Shown here one piece after another: positions 872-60,743 of a DNA stretch of 64,000 nucleotides. The translations under genes and the position numbers were made by a program. The number at the start of each line of letters is the position of its first letter. Position 1 is the stretch's first letter. The DNA is from Escherichia coli (GTDB lineage: Bacteria > Pseudomonadota > Gammaproteobacteria > Enterobacterales > Enterobacteriaceae). The notes under the pieces are model-generated. The model was not told the DNA's origin, did no database searches, and saw only the letters and a program-made list of their open reading frames with translations. The stretch lies in assembly GCF_003790525.1 (NCBI RefSeq), contig NZ_CP033632.1; one strand, written 5' to 3'.

Positions 872-1691
872 GGCACTGTTGCAAATAGTCGGTGGTGATA
901 AACTTATCATCCCCTTTTGCTGATGGAGCTGCACATGAACCCATTCAAAGGCCGGCATTTTCAGCGTGACATCATTCTGTGGGCCGTACGCTGGTACTGC
1001 AAATACGGCATCAGTTACCGTGAGCTGCAGGAGATGCTGGCTGAACGCGGAGTGAATGTCGATCACTCCACGATTTACCGCTGGGTTCAGCGTTATGCGC
1101 CTGAAATGGAAAAACGGCTGCGCTGGTACTGGCGTAACCCTTCCGATCTTTGCCCGTGGCACATGGATGAAACCTACGTGAAGGTCAATGGCCGCTGGGC
1201 GTATCTGTACCGGGCCGTCGACAGCCGGGGCCGCACTGTCGATTTTTATCTCTCCTCCCGTCGTAACAGCAAAGCTGCATACCGGTTTCTGGGTAAAATC
1301 CTCAACAACGTGAAGAAGTGGCAGATCCCACGATTCATCAACACGGATAAAGCGCCCGCCTATGGTCGCGCGCTTGCTCTGCTCAAACGCGAAGGCCGGT
1401 GCCCGTCTGACGTTGAACACCGACAGATTAAGTACCGGAACAACGTGATTGAATGCGATCATGGCAAACTGAAACGGATAATCAACGCCACGCTGGGATT
1501 TAAATCCATGAAGACGGCTTACGCCACCATCAAAGGTATTGAGGTGATGCGTGCACTACGCAAAGGCCAGGCCTCAGCATTTTATTATGGTGATCCCCTG
1601 GGCGAAATGCGCCTGGTAAGCAGAGTTTTTGAAATGTAAGGCCTTTGAATAAGACAAAAGGCTGCCTCATCGCTAACTTTGCAACAGTGCC
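872..1691 (+). mobile_element. IS26: IS26 copy 1 (820 bp, 14-bp terminal IRs ggcactgttgcaaa)
   Basis: Terminal IRs at both ends; contains the Tnp26 ORF. Confidence 0.97.
917..1639 (+). CDS. tnp26: IS26 transposase Tnp26, Asn184 allele (canonical start MNPFKG at 935)
   Basis: ORF translation matches Tnp26; motif RIINATLGF. Confidence 0.95.
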   Translation: MLMELHMNPFKGRHFQRDIILWAVRWYCKYGISYRELQEMLAERGVNVDHSTIYRWVQRYAPEMEKRLRWYWRNPSDLCPWHMDETYVKVNGRWAYLYRAVDSRGRTVDFYLSSRRNSKAAYRFLGKILNNVKKWQIPRFINTDKAPAYGRALALLKREGRCPSDVEHRQIKYRNNVIECDHGKLKRIINATLGFKSMKTAYATIKGIEVMRALRKGQASAFYYGDPLGEMRLVSRVFEM

Positions 1692-1706
1692 AGAAGGTGA
1701 ACACTG

Positions 1707-2291
1707 ATGCCCCGCCCCAAGCTCAAGTCCGATGACGAGGTACTCGAGGCCGCCACCGTAGTGCTGAAGCGTTGCGGTCCCATAGAGTTCACGCTCAGCG
1801 GAGTAGCAAAGGAGGTGGGGCTCTCCCGCGCAGCGTTAATCCAGCGCTTCACCAACCGCGATACGCTGCTGGTGAGGATGATGGAGCGCGGCGTCGAGCA
1901 GGTGCGGCATTACCTGAATGCGATACCGATAGGCGCAGGGCCGCAAGGGCTCTGGGAATTTTTGCAGGTGCTCGTTCGGAGCATGAACACTCGCAACGAC
2001 TTCTCGGTGAACTATCTCATCTCCTGGTACGAGCTCCAGGTGCCGGAGCTACGCACGCTTGCGATCCAGCGGAACCGCGCGGTGGTGGAGGGGATCCGCA
2101 AGCGACTGCCCCCAGGTGCTCCTGCGGCAGCTGAGTTGCTCCTGCACTCGGTCATCGCTGGCGCGACGATGCAGTGGGCCGTCGATCCGGATGGTGAGCT
2201 AGCTGATCATGTGCTGGCTCAGATCGCTGCCATCCTGTGTTTAATGTTTCCCGAACACGACGATTTCCAACTCCTCCAGGCACATGCGTAA
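1707..2291 (+). CDS. mphR(A): TetR-family repressor MphR(A), 194 aa
   Basis: Translation MPRPKLKSDDEVLEAATVVLKRCGPIEF... matches MphR(A) from memory; IS6100 lies downstream as in the usual mph(A) module. Confidence 0.85.
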   Translation: MPRPKLKSDDEVLEAATVVLKRCGPIEFTLSGVAKEVGLSRAALIQRFTNRDTLLVRMMERGVEQVRHYLNAIPIGAGPQGLWEFLQVLVRSMNTRNDFSVNYLISWYELQVPELRTLAIQRNRAVVEGIRKRLPPGAPAAAELLLHSVIAGATMQWAVDPDGELADHVLAQIAAILCLMFPEHDDFQLLQAHA

Positions 2292-2729
2292 ACGGAGGTG
2301 TGCAGAGTCCCTGCGGCAGGCGACGAACACGACCGTCGTCGATTAGTACCGGTACGGTCGGTGGTATCGAAGTCTTGATCACCACTCAGGTCTACGGCTT
2401 ACAAATGGTGACCATCCCGATACTTGCGTCAGAGCACCGGGCCGATTCTTTGACAGTGAATCACTCCCGTAAGGTTGTGCCGGTGTGGGTGTCCCGGGTC
2501 GAGACGATACTCCGCCAATGCGCCCAGCAAACAACCTGGCCATCGCAGGTGGTGGGGAGCGGTGTGGCGGATGAGTTGGACAAGTTGGTGTAGCAGCACG
2601 AGCACGGCGAGATAACATCGCAGGAGTTCGACATGCTCAAGAGACAGCTGATTGCGAATCGCGATGCAGATTCATAACCCGATTGCGGGTTGGCTTCACT
2701 CCACCATCACCGAGCAGACTAGCACGGCG

Positions 2730-3609
2730 GGCTCTGTTGCAAAGATTGGCGGCAGTCAGAGGTAGGCTGTCGCTCTGCGCCGATCAGGCGGCTGCTGCGA
2801 AATGGTGGTTGAGCATGCCCATGGCCTCCGTCAGCGCCGAGGGCCCAATGCCAAAAGCTCTCTCCACAAGGCGCACCTCGCCCCTGATGCCGGGCTGCAG
2901 GCACCAGGGGCGAGCCTGTCCTTTGCGCAGGGCTCGCATGACTTCGAATCCCTTGATCGTGGCATAGGCCGTGGGGATCGATTTGAAACCGCGCACCGGC
3001 TTGATCAGTATCTTGAGCTTTCCGTGATCGGCCTCGATCACGTTATTGAGATACTTCACCTGCCGGTGGGCCGTCTCCCGGTCCAGCTTTCCTTCGCGCT
3101 TCAATTCGGTGATCGCTGCACCATAGCTCGGCGCTTTGTCGGTATTGAGCGTGGCAGGCTTTTCCCAGTGCTTCAGGCCTCGCAGGGCCTTGCCCAGGAA
3201 CCGCTTCGCTGCCTTGGCGCTGCGGGTCGGCGACAGGTAGAAATCGATCGTGTCGCCCCGCTTGTCGACTGCCCGGTACAGGTAGGTCCACTTGCCCCGC
3301 ACCTTGACGTAGGTTTCATCCAGGCGCCAGCTCGGATCAAAGCCACGCCGCCAGAACCAGCGCAGCCGCTTCTCCATCTCCGGGGCGTAGCACTGGACCC
3401 AGCGATAGATCGTCGTATGGTCGACCGAAATGCCGCGTTCCGCCAGCATTTCCTCAAGGTCGCGATAGCTGATCGGATAGCGACAATACCAGCGCACCGC
3501 CCACAGGATCACATCACCCTGGAAATGGCGCCACTTGAAATCCGTCATCGTTCCGTCCGTCCAATCTCCGCCAAGCATGCTCAAGCTTCACGATTTTTGC
3601 AACAGAGCC
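2730..3609 (-). mobile_element. IS6100: IS6100 (880 bp)
   Basis: 14-bp IRs ggctctgttgcaaa at 2730 and, reverse-complemented, at 3596..3609; encodes an IS6-family transposase. Confidence 0.92.
2784..3548 (-). CDS. IS6100 transposase (254 aa from MTDFKWRHFQGD)
   Basis: ORF 2784..3584 translation; IS6-family DDE protein about 60 percent identical to Tnp26. Confidence 0.9.
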   Translation of the reverse strand: MTDFKWRHFQGDVILWAVRWYCRYPISYRDLEEMLAERGISVDHTTIYRWVQCYAPEMEKRLRWFWRRGFDPSWRLDETYVKVRGKWTYLYRAVDKRGDTIDFYLSPTRSAKAAKRFLGKALRGLKHWEKPATLNTDKAPSYGAAITELKREGKLDRETAHRQVKYLNNVIEADHGKLKILIKPVRGFKSIPTAYATIKGFEVMRALRKGQARPWCLQPGIRGEVRLVERAFGIGPSALTEAMGMLNHHFAAAA

Positions 3610-3636
3610 CACACGAGTATTGAGCATAGTCGAGAT
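3610..3636. other. 27-bp fragment of class 1 integron/Tn402 IRt-proximal sequence, between IS6100 and IS26
   Basis: cacacgagtattgagcatagtcgagat is the exact reverse complement of 60699..60725, just inside IRt. Confidence 0.8.
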
Positions 3637-4456
3637 GGCACTGTTGCAAAGTTAGCGATGAGGCAGCCTTTTGTCTTATTCAAAGGCCTTACATTTCAAA
3701 AACTCTGCTTACCAGGCGCATTTCGCCCAGGGGATCACCATAATAAAATGCTGAGGCCTGGCCTTTGCGTAGTGCACGCATCACCTCAATACCTTTGATG
3801 GTGGCGTAAGCCGTCTTCATGGATTTAAATCCCAGCGTGGCGTTGATTATCCGTTTCAGTTTGCCATGATCGCATTCAATCACGTTGTTCCGGTACTTAA
3901 TCTGTCGGTGTTCAACGTCAGACGGGCACCGGCCTTCGCGTTTGAGCAGAGCAAGCGCGCGACCATAGGCGGGCGCTTTATCCGTGTTGATGAATCGTGG
4001 GATCTGCCACTTCTTCACGTTGTTGAGGATTTTACCCAGAAACCGGTATGCAGCTTTGCTGTTACGACGGGAGGAGAGATAAAAATCGACAGTGCGGCCC
4101 CGGCTGTCGACGGCCCGGTACAGATACGCCCAGCGGCCATTGACCTTCACGTAGGTTTCATCCATGTGCCACGGGCAAAGATCGGAAGGGTTACGCCAGT
4201 ACCAGCGCAGCCGTTTTTCCATTTCAGGCGCATAACGCTGAACCCAGCGGTAAATCGTGGAGTGATCGACATTCACTCCGCGTTCAGCCAGCATCTCCTG
4301 CAGCTCACGGTAACTGATGCCGTATTTGCAGTACCAGCGTACGGCCCACAGAATGATGTCACGCTGAAAATGCCGGCCTTTGAATGGGTTCATGTGCAGC
4401 TCCATCAGCAAAAGGGGATGATAAGTTTATCACCACCGACTATTTGCAACAGTGCC
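3637..4456 (-). mobile_element. IS26: IS26 copy 2
   Basis: 820 bp with terminal IRs. Confidence 0.97.
3689..4411 (-). CDS. tnp26: IS26 transposase Tnp26, Asn184 allele
   Basis: ORF translation identical to copy 1. Confidence 0.95.
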   Translation of the reverse strand: MLMELHMNPFKGRHFQRDIILWAVRWYCKYGISYRELQEMLAERGVNVDHSTIYRWVQRYAPEMEKRLRWYWRNPSDLCPWHMDETYVKVNGRWAYLYRAVDSRGRTVDFYLSSRRNSKAAYRFLGKILNNVKKWQIPRFINTDKAPAYGRALALLKREGRCPSDVEHRQIKYRNNVIECDHGKLKRIINATLGFKSMKTAYATIKGIEVMRALRKGQASAFYYGDPLGEMRLVSRVFEM

Positions 4457-4517
4457 CTATAAAGAACTAAAGAAATGAAGATACAAAGATACGAATATCT
4501 GAATAAAAACAGAAAAA

Positions 4518-4637
4518 TGCGTACCCATCCACCTTTCAGTGCGTACCCATCCACCTTTCAGTGCGCAGCCATCCACCTTTCATGAAAATTACAGTGCGTA
4601 CCCATCCACCTTTCAGTGCGTACCCATCCACCTTTCA
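4518..4637. repeat. Five direct ~22-bp iterons (consensus tgcgtacccatccacctttcag) in blocks of 3 and 2
   Basis: Tandem direct repeats read directly in the sequence. Confidence 0.85.
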
Positions 4638-4806
4638 TTTTGAGGCGACAAAAAACAACACCTATCTTAATGAAATTATTGATAAAAAAACTGGCACAAT
4701 GTTTGCAGAATAAGTTAGAGTAAGTTAAAGATCTTAAAGTAGATCTACCGATCTACATTTAAGATCTTAAAAACAAGAAGTTTAATAAGCAAAAAAACAC
4801 AAAAAA

Positions 4807-4861
4807 TCTGTGGATAACTTTGCTCAAAACAAAAAATTCACACTACCTGTGGATAACTTTG
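4807..4861. promoter_or_regulatory. Two 16-bp direct repeats (ctgtggataactttgc), each containing a DnaA-box-like tgtggataa
   Basis: Repeats at 4807..4822 and 4846..4861, next to an AT-rich tract and the iterons. Confidence 0.6.
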
Positions 4862-5499
4862 CGTAAACCCAGAGGACAGATCACTCTGAACCAAGACAAC
4901 CACACATAAAAACAATATGCTCGCTTTTTAACCACTGCGCGTAATTGCCTGATGTTATCCCTGTGCTGTTCCGCTTCCTCGCTCACTAACTCGCTACACT
5001 CGGTCGTTCGGCTGCGGCGAGCGGTGTCTCCTTTCTCAAAACCAGAAGAGTTCAGATCATACGATCCGTTGATTGATCCTTTTTGGATCTTTCACTGAGA
5101 AGCCCTGAATCGCTTTCTAACGCTTTGTTCGATGTAACCATGAGGAAAACCATGTGAAATCGAAAAAATCGCTCAGAATGCGATACAGCGCGTTTTAGAG
5201 GGTATTTACAAAACAGTCGTTGCCTTGAGGAAATTTTGATCAAGATTGAACTCCTATCCGGATCATGGCAACAGATCACAGCAACAAGGCCGCTAAAAAG
5301 CGTTGAGCGGCGTTAAAAACCGTTAAACCGTAGCTGACTATAACGAAACGGGAAAAAACGCTCAGAACGCGTTACAGAGCGTTTTAAGGCGATGTCGGAA
5401 AGAGCCATACCTCACCTGTTCTGATGTTTTTCTCAACACAAGCACTTTTAAGAGTACTTTTAAAGATGCTATTATGCCAATAAGACAAGCGGAGGACTT

Positions 5500-5751
5500 A
5501 TGAGCTATCAAATTCTGACAACCACAGCGGCCAGTATTACTGACCTGAAAAAAAATCCTATGGGAACCGTAGCTGAAGGTGAAGGGGACGCTGTTGCGAT
5601 CCTGAACCGAAACGAACCGGCGTTCTATTGCGTTCCACCAAAACTTTACGCCTACTATCGGGAACTCGCTGAAGATGCTGAGTTAAACGCTGTTGCTGAT
5701 GAGCGCATGAAAAACCCGGAAATTGTGAAGGTTAACCTGGATGACCTATGA
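5500..5751 (+). CDS. Type II antitoxin (StbD/RelB-like, Phd/YefM-type), 83 aa
   Basis: Small acidic protein overlapping a RelE/ParE-like toxin gene by 11 bp. Confidence 0.65.
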   Translation: MSYQILTTTAASITDLKKNPMGTVAEGEGDAVAILNRNEPAFYCVPPKLYAYYRELAEDAELNAVADERMKNPEIVKVNLDDL

Positions 5752-6022
5752 ACTGGCTTTTGACCGCAGAGCACTGAAGGAATGGCAGAAACTCGGCCAC
5801 ACCATCCGTGAACAATTCAAAAAGAAGCTGGCAGAACGGCTGGAAAATCCACGCGTACCCGCAGCCCGGTTACATGGTCATGCTGATCGCTATAAAATCA
5901 AACTTCGTGCATCTGGCTACAGACTTGTATATCAAGTCATTGATGAGAAAGTCGTTTTACTCGTTATTGCTGTTGGAAGAAGGGAAAGCAGCGAAGTTTA
6001 TCAGATTGCAGATATGCGCTGA
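5741..6022 (+). CDS. RelE/ParE-family toxin (StbE-like), 93 aa
   Basis: Translation ...RLHGHADRYKIKLRASGYRLVYQVIDEKVVLLVIAVGRRESSEVY is typical of RelE/ParE. Confidence 0.75.
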   Translation: MTYELAFDRRALKEWQKLGHTIREQFKKKLAERLENPRVPAARLHGHADRYKIKLRASGYRLVYQVIDEKVVLLVIAVGRRESSEVYQIADMR

Positions 6023-6208
6023 ACTGAAACCCGCCCCGTAATTCGCGGCTGCAGCCGCTCAGACGCGCAGATGCTACACACCGTCACGGCGTACCGTTCG
6101 CAAGCTTACGCGCTAACTGCGAAAGGCTAATTGCGTGTTGTTAGTCCGGTAATGGGCTTTGCAGGGAGGGGGGATGTCCCTGATCTTAATTAAGCTGGTT
6201 TGTTTCCG

Positions 6209-6350
6209 GGCACTGTTGCAAAGTTAGCGATGAGGCAGCCTTTTGTCTTATTCAAAGGCCTTACATTTCAAAAACTCTGCTTACCAGGCGCATTTCGCCT
6301 AGGGGATCACCATAATAAAATGCTGAGGCCTGGCCTTTGCGTAGTGCACG
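6209..6350 (-). mobile_element. IS26: IS26 stub (142 bp of the end distal to the tnp start)
   Basis: Matches 3637..3778 with one SNP (t at 6300); homology ends abruptly at 6350. Confidence 0.85.
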
Positions 6351-6518
6351 TATAGGAAATTGAAAAACCAGTCGATACCATTGTCCACGCCTTATGCCAC
6401 GTGAGCCTTTCTGCTTTTCCCACCACTCCGGTGGTTTCCCTCTCTGTATGGTCGATTTTTATACCGTAACAGGCTGTTTTTTATACTTTCACCGATTCCC
6501 GGGCACACTTAGCCTGTG

Positions 6519-7718
6519 TCAGGCCGGCATATACCTCAGTAGACTGATATCCCGCGCGTTTTTCTTCAGCCCTGATACATTCAGCCCCGCAATGGCCCGG
6601 CGGTATACCATCCGGCAGCCACACAGCACGCATTCGAACGGGTCACGACTCAGGAACTGTTTCACCATTTGTGCATAGCACACTTTCGCCACTGGTTCCG
6701 GTTTATCCATCCCCAGTGCACGGTACACCTGCGGCAGCTTCTCTCCACACACACGGTTGGCAAGGAACCCGAAGTACCTCACCATCTTAAAAAACTTCTC
6801 CGGGATGTGCTGTTTCAGCCTCGCGACCAGCTCACGCTGTGTCAGCGTTTCCGTCGCCGTTTCTCCCGTTTTGTGGTCCAGGTAACGGAAGCTCAGGCTT
6901 GCCCCTCCGTTGTAATGAGCCAGTCGGGAAGCCGCTATTGGTGGCTTCTTCAGATAACGACCCAGGTAGCGTGCCGTATTCCGCCCTCCGGCTGTCTTCT
7001 TCGACATGTACACATGCCAGTATTTTCCGCCGGATTTCAGCACCAGGCTTCTCCACTGTGATTCCGTCGTGATATGTGACAACGACTCCGGCATTGCCAT
7101 CCCCTCTGACCACGCTTTCAGAAGCAGCTGCCGCATATTCCACATCCACCGTGAACGCATCGCGTCTTTCAGGAAGCTCAGCTTTTTCCACTGACCATGC
7201 TTATTCAGACCTCCACAGGTTACAGACACATGTACATGCGGATGCCAGTTGAGACGACGGCCATACGTGTGGATGGCGCAGAAGATACCGGGTTCCAGCC
7301 CCCGTTTTCGGGCGGCATACAGCAGATTCTCCACCGCCAGACGGCACACGTCATTCAGCAGCCAGCGGTTGCTTTCGAACACCGGCCACAGCGTGTCCGG
7401 CAGGGTGAAGACCAGATGTACCCAGTCGCAGTCAGGAAGACGATTCAGCTGTGTTGCTGTCCACAGGTCTGTGGCCTTCTTTCCGCAGGACGGGCAGGCA
7501 CGGCTGCCGCATGAGTTGGTCAGGTACTTTACGTGCTGACAGTCCGGGTTATCACACCCGAACTCTTTTACACCCAGTATCCGTGTGCCGCAGGCCAGCA
7601 TTTTGGTGACGGCTTCAACCTCGATATCGCGCAGACCGCCCGCATCCAGGAAGGACGTCCAGCACTGGTTGGCTGTGAACAGACGTTTCAGAGGGCGGGG
7701 AGTAAAACCGGACAACAT
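6519..7718 (-). CDS. IS91-family (HUH rolling-circle) transposase, 399 aa
   Basis: N-terminal Cys cluster CDNPDCQHVKYLTNSCGSRACPSCGKK and IS91-like body, recalled not searched. Confidence 0.65.
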   Translation of the reverse strand: MLSGFTPRPLKRLFTANQCWTSFLDAGGLRDIEVEAVTKMLACGTRILGVKEFGCDNPDCQHVKYLTNSCGSRACPSCGKKATDLWTATQLNRLPDCDWVHLVFTLPDTLWPVFESNRWLLNDVCRLAVENLLYAARKRGLEPGIFCAIHTYGRRLNWHPHVHVSVTCGGLNKHGQWKKLSFLKDAMRSRWMWNMRQLLLKAWSEGMAMPESLSHITTESQWRSLVLKSGGKYWHVYMSKKTAGGRNTARYLGRYLKKPPIAASRLAHYNGGASLSFRYLDHKTGETATETLTQRELVARLKQHIPEKFFKMVRYFGFLANRVCGEKLPQVYRALGMDKPEPVAKVCYAQMVKQFLSRDPFECVLCGCRMVYRRAIAGLNVSGLKKNARDISLLRYMPA

Positions 7719-7727
7719 GAGGATGGA

Positions 7728-7916
7728 TTAAACCCCGGTATCCTGTAGCAGGGTAAGGGCTGCTGTATCGCCACGGCGCTTCAGGATGGAGGTCGTCACC
7801 ATCGCAGGTGGTGGGTCCATGGGTTTGAGCATTTTCATCCAGTCCCATTCTCGTTGTGAGAGCTTCTCAGCACCAACAGAGAGCAGAACTGTATCGATAC
7901 TTTTGCGGGTCAACAT
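7728..7916 (-). CDS. Small ORF upstream of the IS91-family transposase, 62 aa
   Basis: Same strand, 9 bp upstream of the transposase gene; IS91-like elements often carry a small upstream ORF. Confidence 0.3.
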   Translation of the reverse strand: MLTRKSIDTVLLSVGAEKLSQREWDWMKMLKPMDPPPAMVTTSILKRRGDTAALTLLQDTGV

Positions 7917-8026
7917 AAGGGGATGAGTCCTTAATAAAACAGGTCCTCAGAGCATACATATTCTGCGGGGCGTGCGGCAACAACAGGACGAACCGGGGCG
8001 GTTTTCAATTTGCAGCCGCCAGGCTG

Positions 8027-9477
8027 CCGTGGTTCATGATAACTTCTGCTCTTCATCGTGCGGCCGACTGGGCTAAATCTGTGTTCTCTTCGGCGGCGCT
8101 GGGTGATCCTCGCCGTACTGCCCGCTTGGTTAACGTCGCCGCCCAATTGGCAAAATATTCTGGTAAATCAATAACCATCTCATCAGAGGGTAGTGAAGCC
8201 ATGCAGGAAGGCGCTTACCGATTTATCCGCAATCCCAACGTTTCTGCCGAGGCGATCAGAAAGGCTGGCGCCATGCAAACAGTCAAGTTGGCTCAGGAGT
8301 TTCCCGAACTGCTGGCCATTGAGGACACCACCTCTTTGAGTTATCGCCACCAGGTCGCCGAAGAGCTTGGCAAGCTGGGCTCTATTCAGGATAAATCCCG
8401 CGGATGGTGGGTTCACTCCGTTCTCTTGCTCGAGGCCACCACATTCCGCACCGTAGGATTACTGCATCAGGAGTGGTGGATGCGCCCGGATGACCCTGCC
8501 GATGCGGATGAAAAGGAGAGTGGCAAATGGCTGGCAGCGGCCGCAACTAGCCGGTTACGCATGGGCAGCATGATGAGCAACGTGATTGCGGTCTGTGACC
8601 GCGAAGCCGATATTCATGCTTATCTGCAGGACAAACTGGCGCATAACGAGCGCTTCGTGGTGCGCTCCAAGCACCCACGCAAGGACGTAGAGTCTGGGTT
8701 GTATCTGTACGACCATCTGAAGAACCAACCGGAGTTGGGTGGCTATCAGATCAGCATTCCGCAAAAGGGCGTGGTGGATAAACGCGGTAAACGTAAAAAT
8801 CGACCAGCCCGCAAGGCGAGCTTGAGCCTGCGCAGTGGGCGCATCACGCTAAAACAGGGGAATATCACGCTCAACGCGGTGCTGGCCGAGGAGATTAACC
8901 CGCCCAAGGGTGAGACCCCGTTGAAATGGTTGTTGCTGACCAGCGAACCGGTCGAGTCGCTAGCCCAAGCCTTGCGCGTCATCGACATTTATACCCATCG
9001 CTGGCGGATCGAGGAGTTCCATAAGGCATGGAAAACCGGAGCAGGAGCCGAGAGGCAACGCATGGAGGAGCCGGATAATCTGGAGCGGATGGTCTCGATC
9101 CTCTCGTTTGTTGCGGTCAGGCTGTTACAGCTCAGAGAAAGCTTCACGCTGCCGCAAGCACTCAGGGCGCAAGGGCTGCTAAAGGAAGCGGAACACGTAG
9201 AAAGCCAGTCCGCAGAAACGGTGCTGACCCCGGATGAATGTCAGCTACTGGGCTATCTGGACAAGGGAAAACGCAAGCGCAAAGAGAAAGCAGGTAGCTT
9301 GCAGTGGGCTTACATGGCGATAGCTAGACTGGGCGGTTTTATGGACAGCAAGCGAACCGGAATTGCCAGCTGGGGCGCCCTCTGGTAAGCTTGGGAAGCC
9401 CTGCAAAGTAAACTGGATGGCTTTCTTGCCGCCAAGGATCTGATGGCGCAGGGGATCAAGATCTGATCAAGAGACAG
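8027..9477 (+). mobile_element. IS50L: IS50L of Tn5, missing about 90 bp including the outside end
   Basis: Inside end agatctgatcaagagacag at 9459..9477; IS50 homology begins only about 6 bp upstream of the tnp start. Confidence 0.85.
8036..9388 (+). CDS. tnp: IS50L transposase, 450 aa (ochre-truncated relative to the 476-aa IS50R Tnp)
   Basis: Translation MITSALHRAADWAKSVF...; ends at ...GIASWGALW as expected for IS50L. Confidence 0.88.
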   Translation: MITSALHRAADWAKSVFSSAALGDPRRTARLVNVAAQLAKYSGKSITISSEGSEAMQEGAYRFIRNPNVSAEAIRKAGAMQTVKLAQEFPELLAIEDTTSLSYRHQVAEELGKLGSIQDKSRGWWVHSVLLLEATTFRTVGLLHQEWWMRPDDPADADEKESGKWLAAAATSRLRMGSMMSNVIAVCDREADIHAYLQDKLAHNERFVVRSKHPRKDVESGLYLYDHLKNQPELGGYQISIPQKGVVDKRGKRKNRPARKASLSLRSGRITLKQGNITLNAVLAEEINPPKGETPLKWLLLTSEPVESLAQALRVIDIYTHRWRIEEFHKAWKTGAGAERQRMEEPDNLERMVSILSFVAVRLLQLRESFTLPQALRAQGLLKEAEHVESQSAETVLTPDECQLLGYLDKGKRKRKEKAGSLQWAYMAIARLGGFMDSKRTGIASWGALW

Positions 9478-9482
9478 GATGA

Positions 9483-10289
<807 letters not shown>

Positions 10290-10309
10290 GCGGGACTCTG
10301 GGGTTCGAA

Positions 10310-10532
10310 ATGACCGACCAAGCGACGCCCAACCTGCCATCACGAGATTTCGATTCCACCGCCGCCTTCTATGAAAGGTTGGGCTTCGGAATCGTTTTCC
10401 GGGACGCCGGCTGGATGATCCTCCAGCGCGGGGATCTCATGCTGGAGTTCTTCGCCCACCCCGGGCTCGATCCCCTCGCGAGTTGGTTCAGCTGCTGCCT
10501 GAGGCTGGACGACCTCGCGGAGTTCTACCGGC
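10310..10532 (+). pseudogene. ble: Tn5 bleomycin-resistance gene ble, 3' end removed by IS26
   Basis: Translation MTDQATPNLPSRDFDSTAAFYERLGFGIVFRDAGWMILQRGDLMLEFFAHPGLDPLASWFSCCLRLDDLAEFYR matches Ble, then runs into the IS26 IR. Confidence 0.85.
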
Positions 10533-11352
10533 GGCACTGTTGCAAATAGTCGGTGGTGATAAACTTATCATCCCCTTTTGCTGATGGAGCTGCACATGAA
10601 CCCATTCAAAGGCCGGCATTTTCAGCGTGACATCATTCTGTGGGCCGTACGCTGGTACTGCAAATACGGCATCAGTTACCGTGAGCTGCAGGAGATGCTG
10701 GCTGAACGCGGAGTGAATGTCGATCACTCCACGATTTACCGCTGGGTTCAGCGTTATGCGCCTGAAATGGAAAAACGGCTGCGCTGGTACTGGCGTAACC
10801 CTTCCGATCTTTGCCCGTGGCACATGGATGAAACCTACGTGAAGGTCAATGGCCGCTGGGCGTATCTGTACCGGGCCGTCGACAGCCGGGGCCGCACTGT
10901 CGATTTTTATCTCTCCTCCCGTCGTAACAGCAAAGCTGCATACCGGTTTCTGGGTAAAATCCTCAACAACGTGAAGAAGTGGCAGATCCCGCGATTCATC
11001 AACACGGATAAAGCGCCCGCCTATGGTCGCGCGCTTGCTCTGCTCAAACGCGAAGGCCGGTGCCCGTCTGACGTTGAACACCGACAGATTAAGTACCGGA
11101 ACAACGTGATTGAATGCGATCATGGCAAACTGAAACGGATAATCGGCGCCACGCTGGGATTTAAATCCATGAAGACGGCTTACGCCACCATCAAAGGTAT
11201 TGAGGTGATGCGTGCACTACGCAAAGGCCAGGCCTCAGCATTTTATTATGGTGATCCCCTGGGCGAAATGCGCCTGGTAAGCAGAGTTTTTGAAATGTAA
11301 GGCCTTTGAATAAGACAAAAGGCTGCCTCATCGCTAACTTTGCAACAGTGCC
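10533..11352 (+). mobile_element. IS26: IS26 copy 3 (Gly184 allele)
   Basis: 820 bp with terminal IRs. Confidence 0.97.
10578..11300 (+). CDS. tnp26: IS26 transposase Tnp26, Gly184 allele (RIIGATLGF)
   Basis: ORF translation. Confidence 0.95.
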   Translation: MLMELHMNPFKGRHFQRDIILWAVRWYCKYGISYRELQEMLAERGVNVDHSTIYRWVQRYAPEMEKRLRWYWRNPSDLCPWHMDETYVKVNGRWAYLYRAVDSRGRTVDFYLSSRRNSKAAYRFLGKILNNVKKWQIPRFINTDKAPAYGRALALLKREGRCPSDVEHRQIKYRNNVIECDHGKLKRIIGATLGFKSMKTAYATIKGIEVMRALRKGQASAFYYGDPLGEMRLVSRVFEM

Positions 11353-11401
11353 CTCTGCGGTGCTAAAAAGAACAAGATTCACCGCAACCCAGGACACTGC
11401 C

Positions 11402-11881
11402 ATGTTAGATTACCGCTTCCCGACAGCTTTGCAGATGGTTCTCAGCGTAGCAATGGCGGAGCAGATGGGTGAACGTTCGACGAGTGCGATTCTGGCCTAC
11501 GGCCTGGAAGCGAACCCGAGCTTTATCCGTAAACTAATGGTTCCGCTAACTCGTGACGGCATTATCGTCTCCACGCTTGGTCGCAACGGCTCAATTCATC
11601 TTGGCCGTCCGGCGGACAAGATCACCCTGCGTGATATCTATCTTTCGGTTATCGAAGATAAAAAACTGTGGGCGTCGCGTCCTGACGTCCCGGCCCGCTG
11701 CGTGGTCAGCGCCAACGCCTGCTGGTACTTCAAATCGGTTGCCGATGAAGCAGAGCAGGCTTCGTTAAACGTCCTCGCTCGCCATACCGTGGCCAGCGCG
11801 CTGGAGGCGGTCAAAAACGCCGATACCAGCGGCTGCGACCCGGTGCCGGAAATGATCGCCCGCTTTAAAAAAGCGCATTAA
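11402..11881 (+). CDS. oqxR: Rrf2-family repressor OqxR
   Basis: Start taken at MLDYRFPTALQ...; placed next to oqxAB; the track ORF extends into the IS26 end. Confidence 0.7.
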   Translation: MLDYRFPTALQMVLSVAMAEQMGERSTSAILAYGLEANPSFIRKLMVPLTRDGIIVSTLGRNGSIHLGRPADKITLRDIYLSVIEDKKLWASRPDVPARCVVSANACWYFKSVADEAEQASLNVLARHTVASALEAVKNADTSGCDPVPEMIARFKKAH

Positions 11882-11897
11882 TCATTTTCTGGTGACG

Positions 11898-11935
11898 AAA
11901 AAAAACCGCCTTCAAATTGTGAAGGCGGTTTTTTT
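11898..11935. terminator. Bidirectional rho-independent terminator between oqxR and oqxB
   Basis: A-run, stem ccgccttca/tgaaggcgg, T-run. Confidence 0.75.
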
Positions 11936-11950
11936 GTTATCTGCTGCAGG

Positions 11951-14900
11951 CTAGGCGGGCAGATCCTCCTGGACCGGCTTCCTGCGGGTCACCAGTTTCC
12001 GTAGCGTCACGTAAAACACCGGCGTCAGGAACAGACCGAAGAGCGTCACGCCCAGCATCCCGGAGAACACCGTGATCCCGGTGACGCCGCGGACTTCCGC
12101 CCCCGCGCCGTGGCCGAGGATCAGCGGAATGGTCCCGGCGATAAAGGCGATGGAGGTCATCACGATCGGGCGCAGACGCAGGCGGCATGCCTCCAGCGCC
12201 GCTTCCATGATGCCTTTCCCCTGGATCTCCAGCTCGCGGGCAAACTCGACGATCAGAATGGCGTTTTTACAGGCCAGGCCCATCAGGACCACCAGACCCA
12301 CCTGCACGAAGACGTTGTTATCGCCCCCGGTCAGCCAGACGCCAAACAGCGCGGAGAGCATCGTCATCGGTACGATAAGGATCACCGCCAGCGGCAGGGT
12401 CCAGCTTTCATACAGCGCGGCCAGTACGAGGAATGCCAGCAGCACCGCCACCGGGAAGACGATCAGCGCCGTGTTGCCCTGGGTGGCCTGCTGGAAGCTG
12501 AGATCCGTCCACTCAATATTCATCCCATTCGGCAGGATCTGCTTCGACAGCTCTTCCAGATGCGTCATCGCCTGCGAAGAAGAGAGGACCCGCGGATCGG
12601 CATCGCCAATCAGGTCCGCCGCCGGATAACCGTTGTAGCGGATCACCGGATCCGGCCCGTAGGTGGTACTGATATTCACCATACTGCCGATCGGTACCAT
12701 TTCGCCCTGATTATTGCGGGTGCGCAGATTGGCGATATCTTCCACGCTCTCGCGGTATGGTCCGTCAGCCTGGGCCATCACGCGCCAGGTACGCCCGAAC
12801 TGGTTAAAGTCATTGACATAAGACGAGCCGAGATAGGTCTGCAGCGTACCGAACAGATCGGTTAGCGATACCCCCTGCGCTTTCGCCTTATCGCGATCGA
12901 CCTGCACGTCCAGCTGCGGCACGTTAGCCTGGTAAGTCGAGATCGGGAAGTGCATCCCCGGCGTCTGCATAATCGCCCCGGACATCGCATTCACCGCGCT
13001 TTGCAGCGCGCCATAGCCCAGCCCTCCGCGATCCTGGATGTACAGGGAGTAGCCGGAACCCTGACCCAGACCTAAAATCGGCGGCGGCAGGATGGAAAAG
13101 CCAAAGCCCTGCTGGATTTGCGCGATTTTGGCGTTGATCTCCGCGTTAATTTCCGCCGCCGTGTGTTTGCGCTGGTCGAACGGTTTCAGGCCAAAAAAGA
13201 CCGTCCCGGTATTCGGCGTGTTGGTGAACTGCAGCGCGTTAAGCCCCGGGAAAGCGACCGCATAGTCGACCCCTTCGGTATTCATCCCGATCTCGCTCAT
13301 TTTGCGGATCACCGCGTCGGTGCGCGCCAGCGACGACCCTTCCGGCATCTTCACGCCGCCAATGAGATACAGCTTATCCTGGGTGGGAATAAACCCGCCG
13401 GGGACGACTTTAAACATCACCCCAGCGGCGCAGAGCAGCAGCAGGTACACCGCAAACACTGCGCCACGGCGTCCAAGCGTTTTGCCTACCAGTCCCTGAT
13501 AGCCGTTCGAGCTGCGCAGGAAAAAGCGGTTAAACGGACGGAAAATCCAGCCAAACAGGCGATCGATCAGCCGGGTAGGGAGGTCTTTCTTCGCGCCGTG
13601 CGGCTTTAACAGCAGGGCCGCCAGCGCCGGGGAGAGCGTCAGCGAGTTGATGGCCGAGATCACCGTCGAGATGGCGATGGTCACCGCGAACTGTTTGTAG
13701 AACTGGCCGGTGACCCCGGAGAGAAACGCCATCGGCACGAACACCGCACACAGCACCAGCGCAATGGCGATAATCGGCCCGGAGACCTCACGCATCGCCT
13801 GATGCGCCGCGGCAAGCGGCGCAAGCCCCTCTTCGATATTACGCTCGACGTTCTCCACCACCACGATGGCGTCGTCCACCACGATACCGATAGCCAGTAC
13901 CAGCCCGAACAGGCTCAGGGTATTCAGCGAGAAGCCCAGCAGATAGAGAATGCTGAAGGTACCCACCACCGATACCGGCACAGCGATCAACGGGATAATC
14001 GACGCGCGCCAGGTCTGCAGGAACAGGATCACTACCAGCACCACCAGCACTACCGCCTCCAGCAGCGTCTGCACCACCGCGCGGATGGAGTCGCGGACGA
14101 AAACCGTCGGGTCGTACGGCGCCGCCCATTGCATATCTTCCGGGAAGCGGGTGGCCAGCTCGGCCATTTTGGCGCGTACCGCGTTCGACAGATCGATGGC
14201 GTTAGCGCCGGGTGACTGGAAGATACCGATCCCGACCGCATCCTTATTGTTGAGCTGGGAGCGCAGCGCATAGCTACCGGAACCCATCTCGATGCGCGCC
14301 ACGTCGCGCAGGCGGACCAGCGAGCCATCCTGCGCCGTTTTCAGAATGATATTGCCAAACTCTTCTTCGGTATGCAGACGGCCCTGGGCGTTAATGGAGA
14401 TCAGGAAATCGCTCTCCTGCGGCAGCGGCTCGGCGCCAAGCTGTCCGGCAGACACCTGGACGTTTTGCTCCTGCATCGCCGTCACCACATCCGAGGCCGT
14501 CAGACCGCGGGCAGCGACCTTATTGGGATCCAGCCAGACGCGCATCGCATATTCACCGGAGCCAAAAATCTGGATCTGGCCGACGCCGGGCAGGCGCGCC
14601 AGCTCATCCTTCACTTTCAGCGTGGCGTAGTTGCGCATATACAGCGAGTCGTACTTCCCGCCGGGGGAGAACAGATGCACCACCAGGGTCAGCGTCGGAG
14701 ACTGCTTCTGGGTGGTGATCCCCAGACGGCGTACATCCTCCGGCAGACGCGCTTCGGCCTGCGCGACGCGGTTCTGCACCTGAACCTGCGCCTGATCCGG
14801 GTCGGTACCCGGGCGGAAGGTGACGGTGGTGACCAGCACGCCGTCGGAGCCGGCGACCGATTTCATGTACATCATGTTTTCAACGCCGTTGATCGCTTCC

Positions 14901-15103
14901 TCCAGCGGCGTCGCCACGGTCTCGGCAATCACTTTCGGGTTGGCGCCGGGATACTCCGCGCGCACCTGGACGCTCGGCGGGACGACATCCGGATATTCGC
15001 TCACCGGCAGCAGTGGGATAGCGATTAACCCGGTGATAAAAATTAAAATCGACAGCACCGCGGCGAAAATCGGCCTGTCGATAAAAAAGCGGGAAAAGTC
15101 CAT
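11951..15103 (-). CDS. oqxB: RND efflux transporter OqxB, 1050 aa
   Basis: AcrB-like 1050-aa translation; paired with the adaptor gene. Confidence 0.9.
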   Translation of the reverse strand: MDFSRFFIDRPIFAAVLSILIFITGLIAIPLLPVSEYPDVVPPSVQVRAEYPGANPKVIAETVATPLEEAINGVENMMYMKSVAGSDGVLVTTVTFRPGTDPDQAQVQVQNRVAQAEARLPEDVRRLGITTQKQSPTLTLVVHLFSPGGKYDSLYMRNYATLKVKDELARLPGVGQIQIFGSGEYAMRVWLDPNKVAARGLTASDVVTAMQEQNVQVSAGQLGAEPLPQESDFLISINAQGRLHTEEEFGNIILKTAQDGSLVRLRDVARIEMGSGSYALRSQLNNKDAVGIGIFQSPGANAIDLSNAVRAKMAELATRFPEDMQWAAPYDPTVFVRDSIRAVVQTLLEAVVLVVLVVILFLQTWRASIIPLIAVPVSVVGTFSILYLLGFSLNTLSLFGLVLAIGIVVDDAIVVVENVERNIEEGLAPLAAAHQAMREVSGPIIAIALVLCAVFVPMAFLSGVTGQFYKQFAVTIAISTVISAINSLTLSPALAALLLKPHGAKKDLPTRLIDRLFGWIFRPFNRFFLRSSNGYQGLVGKTLGRRGAVFAVYLLLLCAAGVMFKVVPGGFIPTQDKLYLIGGVKMPEGSSLARTDAVIRKMSEIGMNTEGVDYAVAFPGLNALQFTNTPNTGTVFFGLKPFDQRKHTAAEINAEINAKIAQIQQGFGFSILPPPILGLGQGSGYSLYIQDRGGLGYGALQSAVNAMSGAIMQTPGMHFPISTYQANVPQLDVQVDRDKAKAQGVSLTDLFGTLQTYLGSSYVNDFNQFGRTWRVMAQADGPYRESVEDIANLRTRNNQGEMVPIGSMVNISTTYGPDPVIRYNGYPAADLIGDADPRVLSSSQAMTHLEELSKQILPNGMNIEWTDLSFQQATQGNTALIVFPVAVLLAFLVLAALYESWTLPLAVILIVPMTMLSALFGVWLTGGDNNVFVQVGLVVLMGLACKNAILIVEFARELEIQGKGIMEAALEACRLRLRPIVMTSIAFIAGTIPLILGHGAGAEVRGVTGITVFSGMLGVTLFGLFLTPVFYVTLRKLVTRRKPVQEDLPA

Positions 15104-15126
15104 GTCTTGGATTCTCTGATTAGGGA

Positions 15127-16302
15127 TCAGTTAAGGGTGGCGCTGGAGGTCATGGCAACGGTTTTGGCGTTAACCGGCATACCCGGCATAAACACTTTTT
15201 GTAAGCCGTCGACGATGACGCTATCCCCAGGATTCAACCCCTTCTGAACGATGCGTAAACCGTCTGCCAGCCGCCCTGGGGTAATGTCGCGGCGCTGTGC
15301 TTTACCATCTTTATCAACGATATAGACGTATTTACGATCCTGATCGGTCAGTACCGCTTTGTCGTCGATCAGCGTGGCTTTGAACTCTGCGCTGCCCGGC
15401 AGACGCACGCGGGCAAACAGCCCCGGCGTGAACAGACGCTGCGAGTTATCCAGCAGCGCACGCATGCGGATGGTGCCGGTACTCGGCGTTAACTGATTAT
15501 CGAGAAAATCCACTTTGCCCTGGTGGGGGTAACCCTCCTCGCCCACCAGGCCAATCTCCACCGGGAGCGCCTGATTATCGCTGGACGCGCCTTGCCCGCG
15601 GCGGGCGAGGTTTTGATAGTGGAGGTAGGTTGACTCGTCGACGTCAAAGTAGACGTACACCGTCTTTTGCGAGACCAGGGTGGTGAGCACGCTGGCGGTG
15701 TCGCCCGCGGTGACCAGGTTACCGCTGGTGATCAGCGCCCGGCTGGCGCGGCCGTCAATAGGGGCGGTCACTTTGGTGAAGTCGAGGTTAAGCTGCGCGG
15801 CATCCACCGCCGCCTGCGCGGCGCGAATGTCGGCCTGCGCCTGAACCGCGGCTGACCGGCGCTGCTCCCACTCTTCACGGGAGACGAGGTTGGTATGGAC
15901 TAATTTATCGGTGCGGTTCGCCTCGCTTTGCGCGAGGCTGGCCTGCGTTTTGGCTCTTGCCAACGCCGCCTGCGCCTGCTCCAGCGCGGCGCGATAGGTT
16001 CTGTCATCTATCGTGAACAGCACCTGGCCCTTTTTCACCTCCTGGCCGTCAGTGTAATTCACTTTATCAATGTATCCCGAGACGCGAGGGCGAAGCTGAA
16101 CGCTCTCCACCGCTTCAATGCGACCGTTAAAACTATCCCACTGACTGATCGACTTCACCAGCACCTTAGCGGCGCTGACCGTCGGGGCGGGAGGCGCAGC
16201 ATTCTGTGCGACGCTGTCGTCGCAGCCGACGAGCAGAAAGGAGAGCATCATCGCGCCGAGCGCGGTCAGGTGAATGTTTCCCCAGGTTTTTTGCAGGCTC
16301 AT
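15127..16302 (-). CDS. oqxA: RND periplasmic adaptor OqxA, 391 aa
   Basis: Membrane-fusion-protein translation upstream of oqxB. Confidence 0.9.
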   Translation of the reverse strand: MSLQKTWGNIHLTALGAMMLSFLLVGCDDSVAQNAAPPAPTVSAAKVLVKSISQWDSFNGRIEAVESVQLRPRVSGYIDKVNYTDGQEVKKGQVLFTIDDRTYRAALEQAQAALARAKTQASLAQSEANRTDKLVHTNLVSREEWEQRRSAAVQAQADIRAAQAAVDAAQLNLDFTKVTAPIDGRASRALITSGNLVTAGDTASVLTTLVSQKTVYVYFDVDESTYLHYQNLARRGQGASSDNQALPVEIGLVGEEGYPHQGKVDFLDNQLTPSTGTIRMRALLDNSQRLFTPGLFARVRLPGSAEFKATLIDDKAVLTDQDRKYVYIVDKDGKAQRRDITPGRLADGLRIVQKGLNPGDSVIVDGLQKVFMPGMPVNAKTVAMTSSATLN

Positions 16303-19710: not shown

Positions 19711-19753
19711 TTCCTTCAAAATATCTCAACGAAATTTCCCGACACCTGTTTAA

Positions 19754-20172: not shown

Positions 20173-20196
20173 GAATACTGATGTAACACGGATTGA

Positions 20197-21090
<894 letters not shown>

Positions 21091-21092
21091 CT

Positions 21093-59965: not shown

Positions 59966-60669
59966 CGAGTTCGCAGCCCGCCGGATGGACGGCGGCCGAG
60001 TTGGCGCAGGCGGCGGCGCGCGGACAGCTTGACCTGCATTACCAGCCGCTGGTCGATCTGCGCGATCACCGGATCGCTGGCGCGGAAGCGTTGATGCGCT
60101 GGCGGCATCCGAGGCTTGGCCTGTTGCCGCCCGGCCAGTTCCTGCCGCTGGCCGAGTCGTTCGGCCTGATGCCGGAAATAGGCGCGTGGGTGCTGGGCGA
60201 GGCCTGTCGCCAGATGCACAAGTGGCAAGGACCGGCATGGCAACCGTTCCGTCTTGCCATCAATGTGTCCGCCAGCCAGGTTGGGCCAACGTTCGACGAC
60301 GAGGTAAAGCTGGTGCTGGCCGATATGGCCCTGCCCGCCGAGCTTCTGGAGATCGAACTGACCGAATCGGTCGCATTCGGCAATCCAGCCCTGTTCGCCA
60401 GTTTCGACGCCTTGCGCGCCATCGGCGTGCGCTTCGCCGCCGACGACTTCGGCACCGGCTATTCCTGCCTGCAACATCTGAAATGCTGCCCCATCACCAC
60501 ATTGAAAATCGACCAATCCTTTGTCGCCAGGCTCCCGGATGATGCCCGTGACCAAACTATCGTGCGGGCGGTGATCCAGCTCGCGCACGGGCTGGGCATG
60601 GATGTCATTTTCAGAAGACGACTGCACCAGTTGATTGGGCGTAATGGCTGTTGTGCAGCCAGCTCCTGA
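59962..60669 (+). CDS. urf2: Urf2 (EAL-domain protein); 3' end encoded by integron IRt-proximal DNA
   Basis: ATGA overlap with merE; frame runs through IRt as in Tn21. Confidence 0.8.
   Translation: MTSSQPAGWTAAELAQAAARGQLDLHYQPLVDLRDHRIAGAEALMRWRHPRLGLLPPGQFLPLAESFGLMPEIGAWVLGEACRQMHKWQGPAWQPFRLAINVSASQVGPTFDDEVKLVLADMALPAELLEIELTESVAFGNPALFASFDALRAIGVRFAADDFGTGYSCLQHLKCCPITTLKIDQSFVARLPDDARDQTIVRAVIQLAHGLGMDVIFRRRLHQLIGRNGCCAASS
60603..60627. repeat. IRt: Class 1 integron/Tn402 IRt (25 bp)
   Basis: tgtcattttcagaagacgactgcac. Confidence 0.85.
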
Positions 60670-60743
60670 CAGTTCAATATCAGAAGTGATCTGCACCAAT
60701 CTCGACTATGCTCAATACTCGTGTGCACCAAAGCGAGGTGAGC

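What the first reader, a model, noticed from the sequence alone, without database searches (positions are those of the whole stretch)
3610..3636. 27-bp integron IRt-end fragment trapped between IS6100 and IS26
The 27 bp are an exact reverse-complement copy of the sequence just inside IRt at 60699..60725. IS6100 sits next to inverted IRt-end fragments in In4-type class 1 integrons, so this is a footprint of an integron 3' end that IS26 later truncated. It is also a second copy of sequence present in the integron at the right of the window, which offers a recombination substrate.
Basis: partly seen in the sequence, partly recalled or inferred. Interest (0 to 1): 0.25.

Follow-up and report, generated by a model that had tools for sequence, protein, structure and literature searches.

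The report
IS26-cut scar of integron end
The 27 bases are a real but ordinary leftover of a class 1 integron's outer end, stuck to IS6100 and cut off by an IS26 insertion; the same scar is already present in dozens of public resistance plasmids and has no function of its own.

Summary
Observation confirmed. Window 3610-3636 is an exact 27/27 reverse-complement copy of 60699-60725, with none expected by chance, and the identity stops at the IS6100 end (3609) and the IS26 end (3637). IRt lies at 60603-60627, so the 27 bp are positions 123 to 97 of the integron's tni end and do not include IRt itself.

Interpretation supported, with refinements. The junction with IS6100 is the canonical one of the 123-bp inverted IRt-end copy that abuts the transposase-proximal end of IS6100. 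This copy is seen in In4-type ends (pHCM1: 152 bp | IS6100 | 123 bp) and in the widespread chrA-padR-IRt-IS6100-mphR(A)-mrx-mph(A)-IS26 module. Window 1691-3636 is 100% identical to that module.

Plasmid pKP49 preserves the intermediate: one IS26 inside the 123-bp piece, flanked by an 8-bp duplication (GTCGAGAT). The window keeps only the IS6100-side half; later IS26-driven rearrangement removed the rest.

The exact junction occurs in 26 of 72,556 plasmid records and 7 of 5,426 complete E. coli genomes.

The "recombination substrate" idea is nominal. 27 bp is the shortest repeat in a window holding six complete 820-bp IS26 copies.

Already known in kind; low interest. One small loose end: IS26 has used this same 8-bp target in both orientations and in several paralogous contexts.

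The parts
3610..3636 (-). 27-bp remnant: positions 123 to 97 of the class 1 integron / Tn402 tni-end (IRt end), read left to right on the + strand. It is the IS6100-proximal part of the 123-bp inverted IRt-end copy. It contains no IRt.
   Evidence: Exact inverted match to 60699-60725. It is identical to the first 27 bp after IS6100 in pKP64477a, pHCM1 and pKP49.
2730..3609 (-). Complete IS6100 (880 bp). The transposase gene is on the - strand, so its transposase-proximal end (IRL) at 3609 abuts the 27 bp.
   Evidence: 14-bp terminal repeats at 2730-2743 and 3596-3609. 100% identical to IS6100 in L002 and L003. Annotated as IS6100 family transposase WP_001389365.1 in the matching records.
3637..4456 (-). 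Complete IS26 (820 bp), Tnp26 G184N variant. Its transposase-distal end (IRR) abuts the 27 bp. The flanking 8-mers are GTCGAGAT (left) and CTATAAAG (right), so there is no target duplication around this copy.
   Evidence: Matching records annotate it as WP_001067858.1.
1692..2729 (+). The last 15 bp of mrx(A) (1692-1706), complete mphR(A) (1707-2291) and 438 bp of downstream sequence up to IS6100. This is the remainder of the mph(A) macrolide-resistance module; mph(A) and nearly all of mrx have been removed by the IS26 at 872-1691.
   Evidence: Window 1691-3636 is 100% identical to pKP64477a L002 3382-5327. The ORF 1707-2291 is 194 aa.
872..1691 (+). Complete IS26 (G184N variant), inverted relative to the copy at 3637-4456. 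It truncates mrx(A).
   Evidence: inverted pair I5.
60603..60725 (+). The resident, intact IRt end of the Tn21-borne class 1 integron. IRt is at 60603-60627. Positions 1-123 are homologous to the 123-bp fragment, and the partner of the 27-mer is at 60699-60725, just upstream of tniA (60744-62423).
   Evidence: Collinear with pRDB9, annotated merE / EAL-domain urf2 / TniA / orf5 / sul1.

Best explanation
The 27 bp are an inert scar, and three steps produced them.

(1) Long ago IS6100 became associated with the tni end of a class 1 integron. This gave the In4-type arrangement, in which the transposase-proximal end of IS6100 abuts an inverted 123-bp copy of the IRt end. That junction was carried into the common chrA-padR-IRt(123)-IS6100-mphR(A)-mrx-mph(A)-IS26 module.

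(2) An IS26 inserted into the 123-bp piece at positions 97-104 and duplicated the 8-bp target GTCGAGAT. This split the piece into a 27-bp part that stayed with IS6100 and a 104-bp part carrying IRt that stayed with padR-chrA.

(3) Later IS26-mediated events (homologous recombination between IS26 copies, or replicative or conservative IS26 transposition) replaced everything beyond that IS26. A second IS26 removed mph(A) and mrx. The result is IS26 - mphR(A) - IS6100 - 27 bp - IS26.

Steps 1 and 2 are shown by comparison with public records. The exact nature of step 3 is inferred. The fragment lacks IRt and cannot act as a transposon end. Its only use is as a lineage marker.
For: The match is exact and non-random, and it is bounded precisely by the two IS ends. 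The IS6100/27-bp junction is at IRt-end position 123, on the transposase-proximal end of IS6100, exactly as in pHCM1 (152 | IS6100 | 123), pKlebA1 and pKP64477a. The full junction is present in more than 4,000 plasmids.

Window 1691-3636 is 100% identical to the mph(A) module of pKP64477a, a module described in the literature with IRt between orf98/padR and IS6100 (PMC6331395; PMC5725488).

pKP49 carries IS26 at the same position and in the same orientation, with GTCGAGAT on both sides. Deleting IS26 plus one duplicate restores the 123 bp exactly. The reciprocal half (IS26 | GTCGAGAT plus the rest of the IRt end) exists in 13 records.

In the window the far flank of this IS26 is unrelated (CTATAAAG), and the missing 96 bp occur nowhere else in the window except in the resident integron. 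The window differs from p1108-NDM by inversion of the adjoining 12-kb segment together with an extra IS26 copy, which shows that IS26 rearrangements are active around this junction. Unmatched 8-bp IS26 flanks are the expected outcome of such events (PMC4471558).
Against: The order and type of the later IS26 events cannot be reconstructed. No pair of IS26 flanks in the window matches, either directly or as a reverse complement.

Other plasmids show IS26 abutting the same fragment at positions 66, 70, 77 and 80, all in the same IS26 orientation. That pattern also fits nested adjacent deletions from a nearby IS26, so a one-step deletion origin for the position-97 junction in this particular lineage is not formally excluded.

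The primary paper describing In4's 123- and 152-bp fragments could not be read here. The arrangement was instead demonstrated directly from sequences.
Confidence: 0.88

Rival explanations
1. The 27-bp junction arose in one step. An IS26 already lying on the padR side carried out intramolecular replicative transposition in cis into position 97, deleting the DNA in between. On this reading it was not an insertion with a target duplication followed by loss of the other half.
For: A nested series of IS26 breakpoints in the same fragment (positions 66, 70, 77, 80 and 97), all with the same IS26 end adjoining, is what repeated adjacent deletions would give. Records exist with IS6100 - 123 bp - partial padR - IS26 (H16 and H24). 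The mechanism is documented for IS26 (PMC4471558).
Against: pKP49 has the same junction with a perfect 8-bp duplication and the complete remainder of the fragment on the other side of the same IS26. A deletion cannot produce that.
Confidence: 0.08
2. The 27 bp come from the other IRt-end copy, the 152-bp terminal one. Alternatively they were copied locally from the resident Tn21 integron at the right of the window.
For: IS26 also abuts position 97 in 152-bp copies (pKlebA1, pHNAH8161B-4) and in ends bearing a complete tniA. Flipping IS6100 by recombination between the short inverted IRt-end repeats could in principle convert a 56-bp spacer into a 27-bp one. This is inference.
Against: A 152-bp origin would leave 56 bp, and on the transposase-distal end of IS6100. 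Here the spacer is 27 bp on the transposase-proximal end, and the other side of IS6100 is the mphR(A) region at 100% identity to the standard module. The resident integron end is intact with no IS6100. The identical junction occurs in plasmids unrelated to this window.
Confidence: 0.03
3. A chance 27-bp identity with no common origin.
For: None.
Against: No matches in 100 shuffles. The match has exact IS-end boundaries. The same sequence continues for 123 bp in thousands of IS6100 contexts.
Confidence: 0

Closest known systems
In4-type class 1 integron 3' end (Tn1696/In4: 3'-CS, then IS6100 flanked by inversely oriented IRt-end fragments of 123 and 152 bp)
   Same: A complete IS6100 whose transposase-proximal end joins IRt-end position 123, in the inverted orientation. 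This is the same junction as in pHCM1 and pKlebA1.
   Different: Only 27 of the 123 bp remain and IRt itself is gone. The 152-bp terminal copy is replaced by the mphR(A) region. No 3'-CS or cassette array is attached. It is a relic, not an integron.
chrA-padR(orf98)-IRt-IS6100-mphR(A)-mrx-mph(A)-IS26 macrolide-resistance module (for example Tn6242 module 2, pEK499- and pKF3-140-type regions)
   Same: Window 1691-3636 is 100% identical to this module, from the last bases of mrx through mphR(A) and IS6100 into the first 27 bp of the IRt fragment. The module is described in PMC6331395 and PMC5725488.
   Different: Both ends are cut by IS26. mph(A) and mrx are lost on one side; the 96 bp with IRt, padR, chrA and the 3'-CS are lost on the other.
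pKP49 (NZ_OL804392) IS26 insertion in the 123-bp fragment
   Same: The same IS26 position and orientation and the same adjoining 8 bp (GTCGAGAT).
   Different: pKP49 retains the duplicated 8 bp and the rest of the fragment with padR-chrA-sul1 beyond IS26. Its IS26 is the standard sequence, whereas the window's copy has the three-base G184N variant.
IS26-remodelled resistance regions (replicative transposition giving 8-bp duplications, deletions and inversions; He et al. 2015)
   Same: Multiple IS26 copies in both orientations with unmatched 8-bp flanks, and an inversion relative to p1108-NDM.
   Different: Nothing differs in kind.

Membership tests
In4-type integron 3' end | Complete IS6100 present | tested here: met
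   880 bp at 2730-3609 with both 14-bp terminal repeats, 100% identical to reference copies.
In4-type integron 3' end | The transposase-proximal end of IS6100 is joined to IRt-end position 123, with the fragment inverted | tested here: met
   The junction is identical to pHCM1, pKlebA1 and pKP64477a.
In4-type integron 3' end | Full 123-bp inverted fragment including the 25-bp IRt | tested here: not met
   Only positions 123-97 remain. The other 96 bp are absent from the window except in the resident integron.
In4-type integron 3' end | 152-bp terminal IRt-end copy on the other side of IS6100 | tested here: not met
   The other side is the mphR(A) region.
In4-type integron 3' end | 3'-CS (qacEdelta1-sul1-orf5) and cassette array attached | tested here: not met
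   IS26 and an unrelated iteron/stability region follow the 27 bp.
chrA-padR-IRt-IS6100-mphR-mrx-mph(A)-IS26 module | Sequence identity and gene order across mphR(A)-IS6100-IRt fragment | tested here: met
   100% identity over 1,946 bp to pKP64477a.
chrA-padR-IRt-IS6100-mphR-mrx-mph(A)-IS26 module | mph(A) and mrx(A) present | tested here: not met
   The IS26 at 872-1691 ends 15 bp upstream of mphR(A). Only those last 15 bp of mrx remain.
chrA-padR-IRt-IS6100-mphR-mrx-mph(A)-IS26 module | padR and chrA beyond the IRt fragment | tested here: not met
   Replaced by IS26 and unrelated DNA.
Simple IS26 insertion | 8-bp direct target duplication flanking the IS26 copy | tested here: not met
   In the window the flanks are GTCGAGAT and CTATAAAG. 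The feature is met in the relative pKP49, with GTCGAGAT on both sides.

The most novel reading that the evidence does not exclude
IRt-end positions 97-104 (ATCTCGAC), at the inner edge of the innermost IRt-like repeat (…TCAGAAGTGATCTGCACCA), may be a preferred IS26 target.

IS26 abuts position 97 in the 123-bp copy, the 152-bp copy and ends bearing a complete tniA. It does so in both IS26 orientations. The reciprocal halves lie next to at least four unrelated outer contexts. This requires at least two independent insertions at the same 8 bp. If recombination through 27-104 bp of homology is discounted, as many as five are needed.
Probability: 0.22. Interest if true: 0.25.

Novelty: already known. 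Interest (0 to 1): 0.08.

Why it matters
It matters little in itself. The fragment is a non-functional scar, and every component and mechanism is textbook for resistance-plasmid mosaics.

It has three practical uses. (1) It serves as an annotation aid: the 27 bp should be labelled as a remnant of the IRt end, not left as unexplained spacer. (2) It is a lineage tracer. The exact IS6100-27 bp-IS26 junction is rare (26 of 72,556 plasmids; 7 of 5,426 E. coli genomes). In the records listed here it comes largely from livestock-associated E. coli and Klebsiella plasmids, with some human isolates. (3) It shows that the orphan mphR(A)-IS6100 unit in this P1-like phage-plasmid descends from the common mph(A) module.

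The recurrent use of one 8-bp target by IS26 would be of modest interest to transposition specialists if it proved non-random.

Tried and rejected
1. Chance match: rejected.

2. Origin from the 152-bp terminal copy: rejected on spacer length and on which IS6100 end is involved.

3. Search for the missing 96 bp, or for matching 8-bp IS26 flanks (direct or reverse-complement), within the window to reconstruct the rearrangement: nothing found.

4. A simple one-step inversion model from a p1108-NDM-like ancestor. The segment is indeed inverted and IS26 duplicated, but the flanks CTATAAAG and ATATGACG are not reverse complements. A single intramolecular transposition with these boundaries is therefore not supported.

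5. Attempt to find the source record of the window in complete E. coli genomes. No record covers more than 45% of the 12-37 kb region, and pPEC301_3 turned out to be a different structure.

6. Attempt to split junction carriers by IS26 orientation with a 101-bp query. The count was confounded by two-piece joins. At least 15 plasmids have the window's orientation, judged from single-piece 451-bp matches.

7. Attempts to read the primary In4 paper and a major review: not held.

8. The 94.8%-identity rows span 58 bp for a 55-bp query. They were treated as not being the true junction and were not followed up.

Full report
OBSERVATION

Window 3610-3636 (CACACGAGTATTGAGCATAGTCGAGAT) has exactly one other match in the 64-kb window allowing up to 3 mismatches. 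It lies on the opposite strand at 60699-60725 with no mismatches, and 100 dinucleotide-preserving shuffles gave none. Extending base by base, identity is lost immediately on both sides.

The left boundary is the last base of a complete 880-bp IS6100 (2730-3609). The right boundary is the first base of a complete 820-bp IS26 (3637-4456). The 25-bp IRt of a class 1 integron/Tn402-type element is at 60603-60627. The partner copy therefore covers positions 97-123 counted from the outer end, just upstream of tniA (60744-62423).

One caveat: "just inside IRt" means 71 bp inside it, and IRt itself is not in the fragment.

WHAT IT IS

I rebuilt the presumed ancestral junction: the last 300 bp of IS6100 plus the reverse complement of 60603-60725. 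I searched it against 72,556 plasmid records. It is present over its full length at 100% identity in thousands of them; 4,126 of the best 5,000 records cover at least 80%.

In pHCM1 the same IS6100 is flanked by IRt positions 1-152 on its transposase-distal side and by positions 123-1 (inverted) on its transposase-proximal side. This is the In4-type arrangement. I recall that arrangement from Partridge et al. 2001, which I could not open here, so it rests on the sequences themselves.

A preprint describing a Tn402 derivative notes 11 bp of tniA next to IS6100. That agrees with a boundary at position 152, given tniA starting at position 142 here.

pKlebA1 shows 3'-CS | 1-123 | IS6100 | 152-97 | IS26. 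The window's 27 bp therefore derive from the 123-bp inverted copy. The junction is at position 123 and on the transposase-proximal end of IS6100. A derivation from the 152-bp copy would leave 56 bp on the other end.

IMMEDIATE ANCESTOR

Window 1691-3636 is 100% identical over 1,946 bp to pKP64477a. That plasmid's order is IS26 - mph(A) - mrx - mphR(A) - IS6100 - 123-bp IRt fragment - padR - chrA - sul1 - qacEdelta1 - aadA2 - dfrA12.

This module is well described. [quoted passage not shown] PMC5725488 describes the same unit in several plasmids.

In the window both ends of the module have been removed by IS26. The copy at 872-1691 ends 15 bp before mphR(A) (1707-2291). The copy at 3637-4456 replaces everything after the 27th base of the IRt fragment.

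HOW THE TRUNCATION AROSE

The 55-bp junction (14 bp IS6100 + 27 bp + 14 bp IS26) is found in 26 plasmid records and in 7 complete E. coli genomes at 100% identity. About 4,300 plasmids and 983 of 5,426 E. coli genomes carry the IS6100 end plus the same 27 bp in the ordinary untruncated context.

The reciprocal junction (IS26 end | GTCGAGAT followed by the rest of the IRt end) exists in 13 records. In pKP49 (NZ_OL804392) both junctions flank one and the same IS26. The 8 bp GTCGAGAT is present on both sides, and deleting IS26 plus one copy of the 8 bp restores the 123-bp fragment exactly, with padR-chrA-sul1 beyond it.

That is the signature of a straightforward IS26 insertion with an 8-bp target duplication at IRt-end positions 97-104. 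In the window the far flank of this IS26 is CTATAAAG, followed by plasmid iterons. The missing 96 bp occur nowhere else except in the resident integron. The IRt-bearing half was therefore separated later.

Rearrangement around this IS26 is evident in two ways:
- Relative to p1108-NDM, the 12-kb segment 4457-16558 (iterons, stability genes, IS91-family element, aph(3')-IIa, IS26, oqxAB) is inverted with respect to the IS26-27 bp-IS6100-mphR(A) unit, and IS26 is duplicated.
- The window's copy carries the three-base variant encoding Tnp26 G184N, whereas pKP49's copy at the same site is standard.

No pair of IS26 flanks in the window matches, so the individual later steps cannot be reconstructed. 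He et al. 2015 (PMC4471558) report that more than half of IS26 copies have such unmatched flanks and attribute them to intramolecular transposition.

FUNCTION

The fragment has none. It lacks IRt (positions 1-25). By inspection of the 160-bp IRt-end sequence, it also lies inside the last IRt-like repeat, which ends at position 96 (one search prints the two repeats). It cannot serve as a transposon end. It is a scar and a lineage marker.

THE "RECOMBINATION SUBSTRATE" REMARK

The two copies are inverted and 57,062 bp apart, so recombination between them would invert the interval rather than delete it. They are the shortest repeat reported in the window.

The same window holds six complete IS26 copies, three in each orientation. 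These give nine 820-bp inverted pairs and six direct pairs, plus a 146-bp IS26 fragment. From general knowledge (Shen and Huang 1986; not checked here), about 23-27 bp is the lower limit for efficient RecA-dependent exchange in E. coli. The statement is formally true but practically negligible.

THE RIGHT-HAND INTEGRON

The window's right end is collinear with pRDB9: tet(A)-tetR, merRTPCADE, the EAL-domain urf2, then IRt, tniA, a truncated tniB, orf5 and sul1, running off the window. This is a Tn21-borne class 1 integron that retains tniA. It is not In4-type and has no IS6100. The 27-bp fragment was therefore imported with the mph(A) module rather than derived from this resident integron.

A LOOSE END

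IS26 abuts IRt-end position 97 not only in the 123-bp copy. It also does so in 152-bp copies (pKlebA1, pHNAH8161B-4) and in ends with complete tniA-tniB (IncA plasmids p253A and pRIVM0001_VIM-1). About 29 exact records show this.

Both IS26 orientations occur:
- The window, pKP49, pHNAH8161B-4 and the IncA plasmids have the transposase-distal end adjoining position 97.
- pKlebA1 and pPEC301_3 have the transposase-proximal end adjoining.
- Reciprocal halves of this second orientation lie next to padR-chrA, the 3'-CS, an IncN backbone and a Tn3-family element.

Orientation cannot be changed by homologous recombination. At least two independent insertions therefore used the same 8-bp target.

Against a true hot spot, IS26 also abuts the same fragment at positions 66, 70, 77 and 80. 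The region has clearly been hit many times. With roughly six to eight independent events over about 116 possible positions, one coincidence has a probability of the order of 0.2 (my estimate). I leave this unresolved and rate a genuine target preference at about 0.2.

VERDICT

The finding is real and correctly interpreted. It is a known kind of relic in a typical IS26-remodelled resistance region, here on a P1-like phage-plasmid backbone (C1 repressor and a Cre-like recombinase). Interest is low.

Noticed in passing
window 872-1691, 3637-4456, 16559-17378 versus 10533-11352, 23792-24611, 27109-27928: Three of the six complete IS26 copies encode Tnp26 with G184N. They differ from the standard copy at nucleotide positions 207, 208 and 362 and match WP_001067858.1; the other three are standard (WP_001067855.1). 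From memory, this variant has been reported to have enhanced activity. The two types are interleaved and occur in both orientations.
   Followed up: partly
IRt-end positions 97-104 (window 60699-60706); loci L004, L006, L009-L016: IS26 has used the same 8-bp target (ATCTCGAC) in both orientations. The junction is found in 123-bp, 152-bp and full-tniA contexts, with several unrelated outer flanks. This could be a preferred target or coincidence plus recombinational spread. Other breakpoints at positions 66, 70, 77 and 80 also exist.
   Followed up: partly
window 4512-4660: About six 22-bp direct repeats (consensus near GTGCGTACCCATCCACCTTTCA), typical plasmid iterons, lie 56 bp from the IS26 end. 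In p1108-NDM the corresponding replication initiator gene lies just beyond, but in the window IS26 has replaced it. These appear to be orphan iterons without their rep gene.
   Followed up: partly
window 1707-2291: mphR(A), the repressor of the mph(A) operon, is intact. The genes it regulates, mph(A) and mrx(A), have been deleted by IS26, leaving an orphan regulator between two inverted IS26 copies.
   Followed up: yes
window 4457-16558 versus p1108-NDM (L008 495-12602): The 12-kb segment carrying stability genes, an IS91-family element, aph(3')-IIa, IS26 and oqxAB is inverted relative to the IS26-27 bp-IS6100-mphR(A) unit when compared with p1108-NDM. The single IS26 of p1108-NDM is represented by two inverted copies here. 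The flanking 8-mers do not fit a single-step intramolecular transposition.
   Followed up: partly
window about 28000-45000 (C1 repressor 41928-42779; 343-aa tyrosine recombinase 43933-44964): The backbone between the resistance regions is P1-like phage-plasmid DNA. There is a full-length match to the phage repressor C1 model at 611 bits, a Cre-sized recombinase, and terminase genes in matching records. Many ORFs in 28-41 kb had no NCBIfam match.
   Followed up: partly
window 17366-27928: A truncated TraI-type relaxase/helicase fragment abuts IS26 at 17366. It is followed by blaCTX-M (20215-21090; CTX-M-65 in matching records), IS903B, a truncated TonB-dependent receptor gene, and IS26-fosA3-IS26 (fosA3 at 24913-25350). 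This is the familiar F33-plasmid-type CTX-M/fosA3 region, transplanted onto this backbone.
   Followed up: partly
locus L015 (pKPN20-1, NZ_CP092337.1) around 350-2014: In this plasmid the IS26 carrying the reciprocal half (IS26 | positions 104-1 of the IRt end) also truncates an adjacent IS6100 at 840 of 880 bp, so IS26 directly abuts an incomplete IS6100.
   Followed up: no
locus L016 (pPEC301_3) 19939-20041: A 76-bp remnant of the transposase-proximal end of IS6100 plus the 27 bp is sandwiched between two IS26 copies, upstream of an intact mph(A) module. That module has its own complete IS6100-123 bp junction, so this plasmid holds two copies of the 27-mer context.
   Followed up: partly
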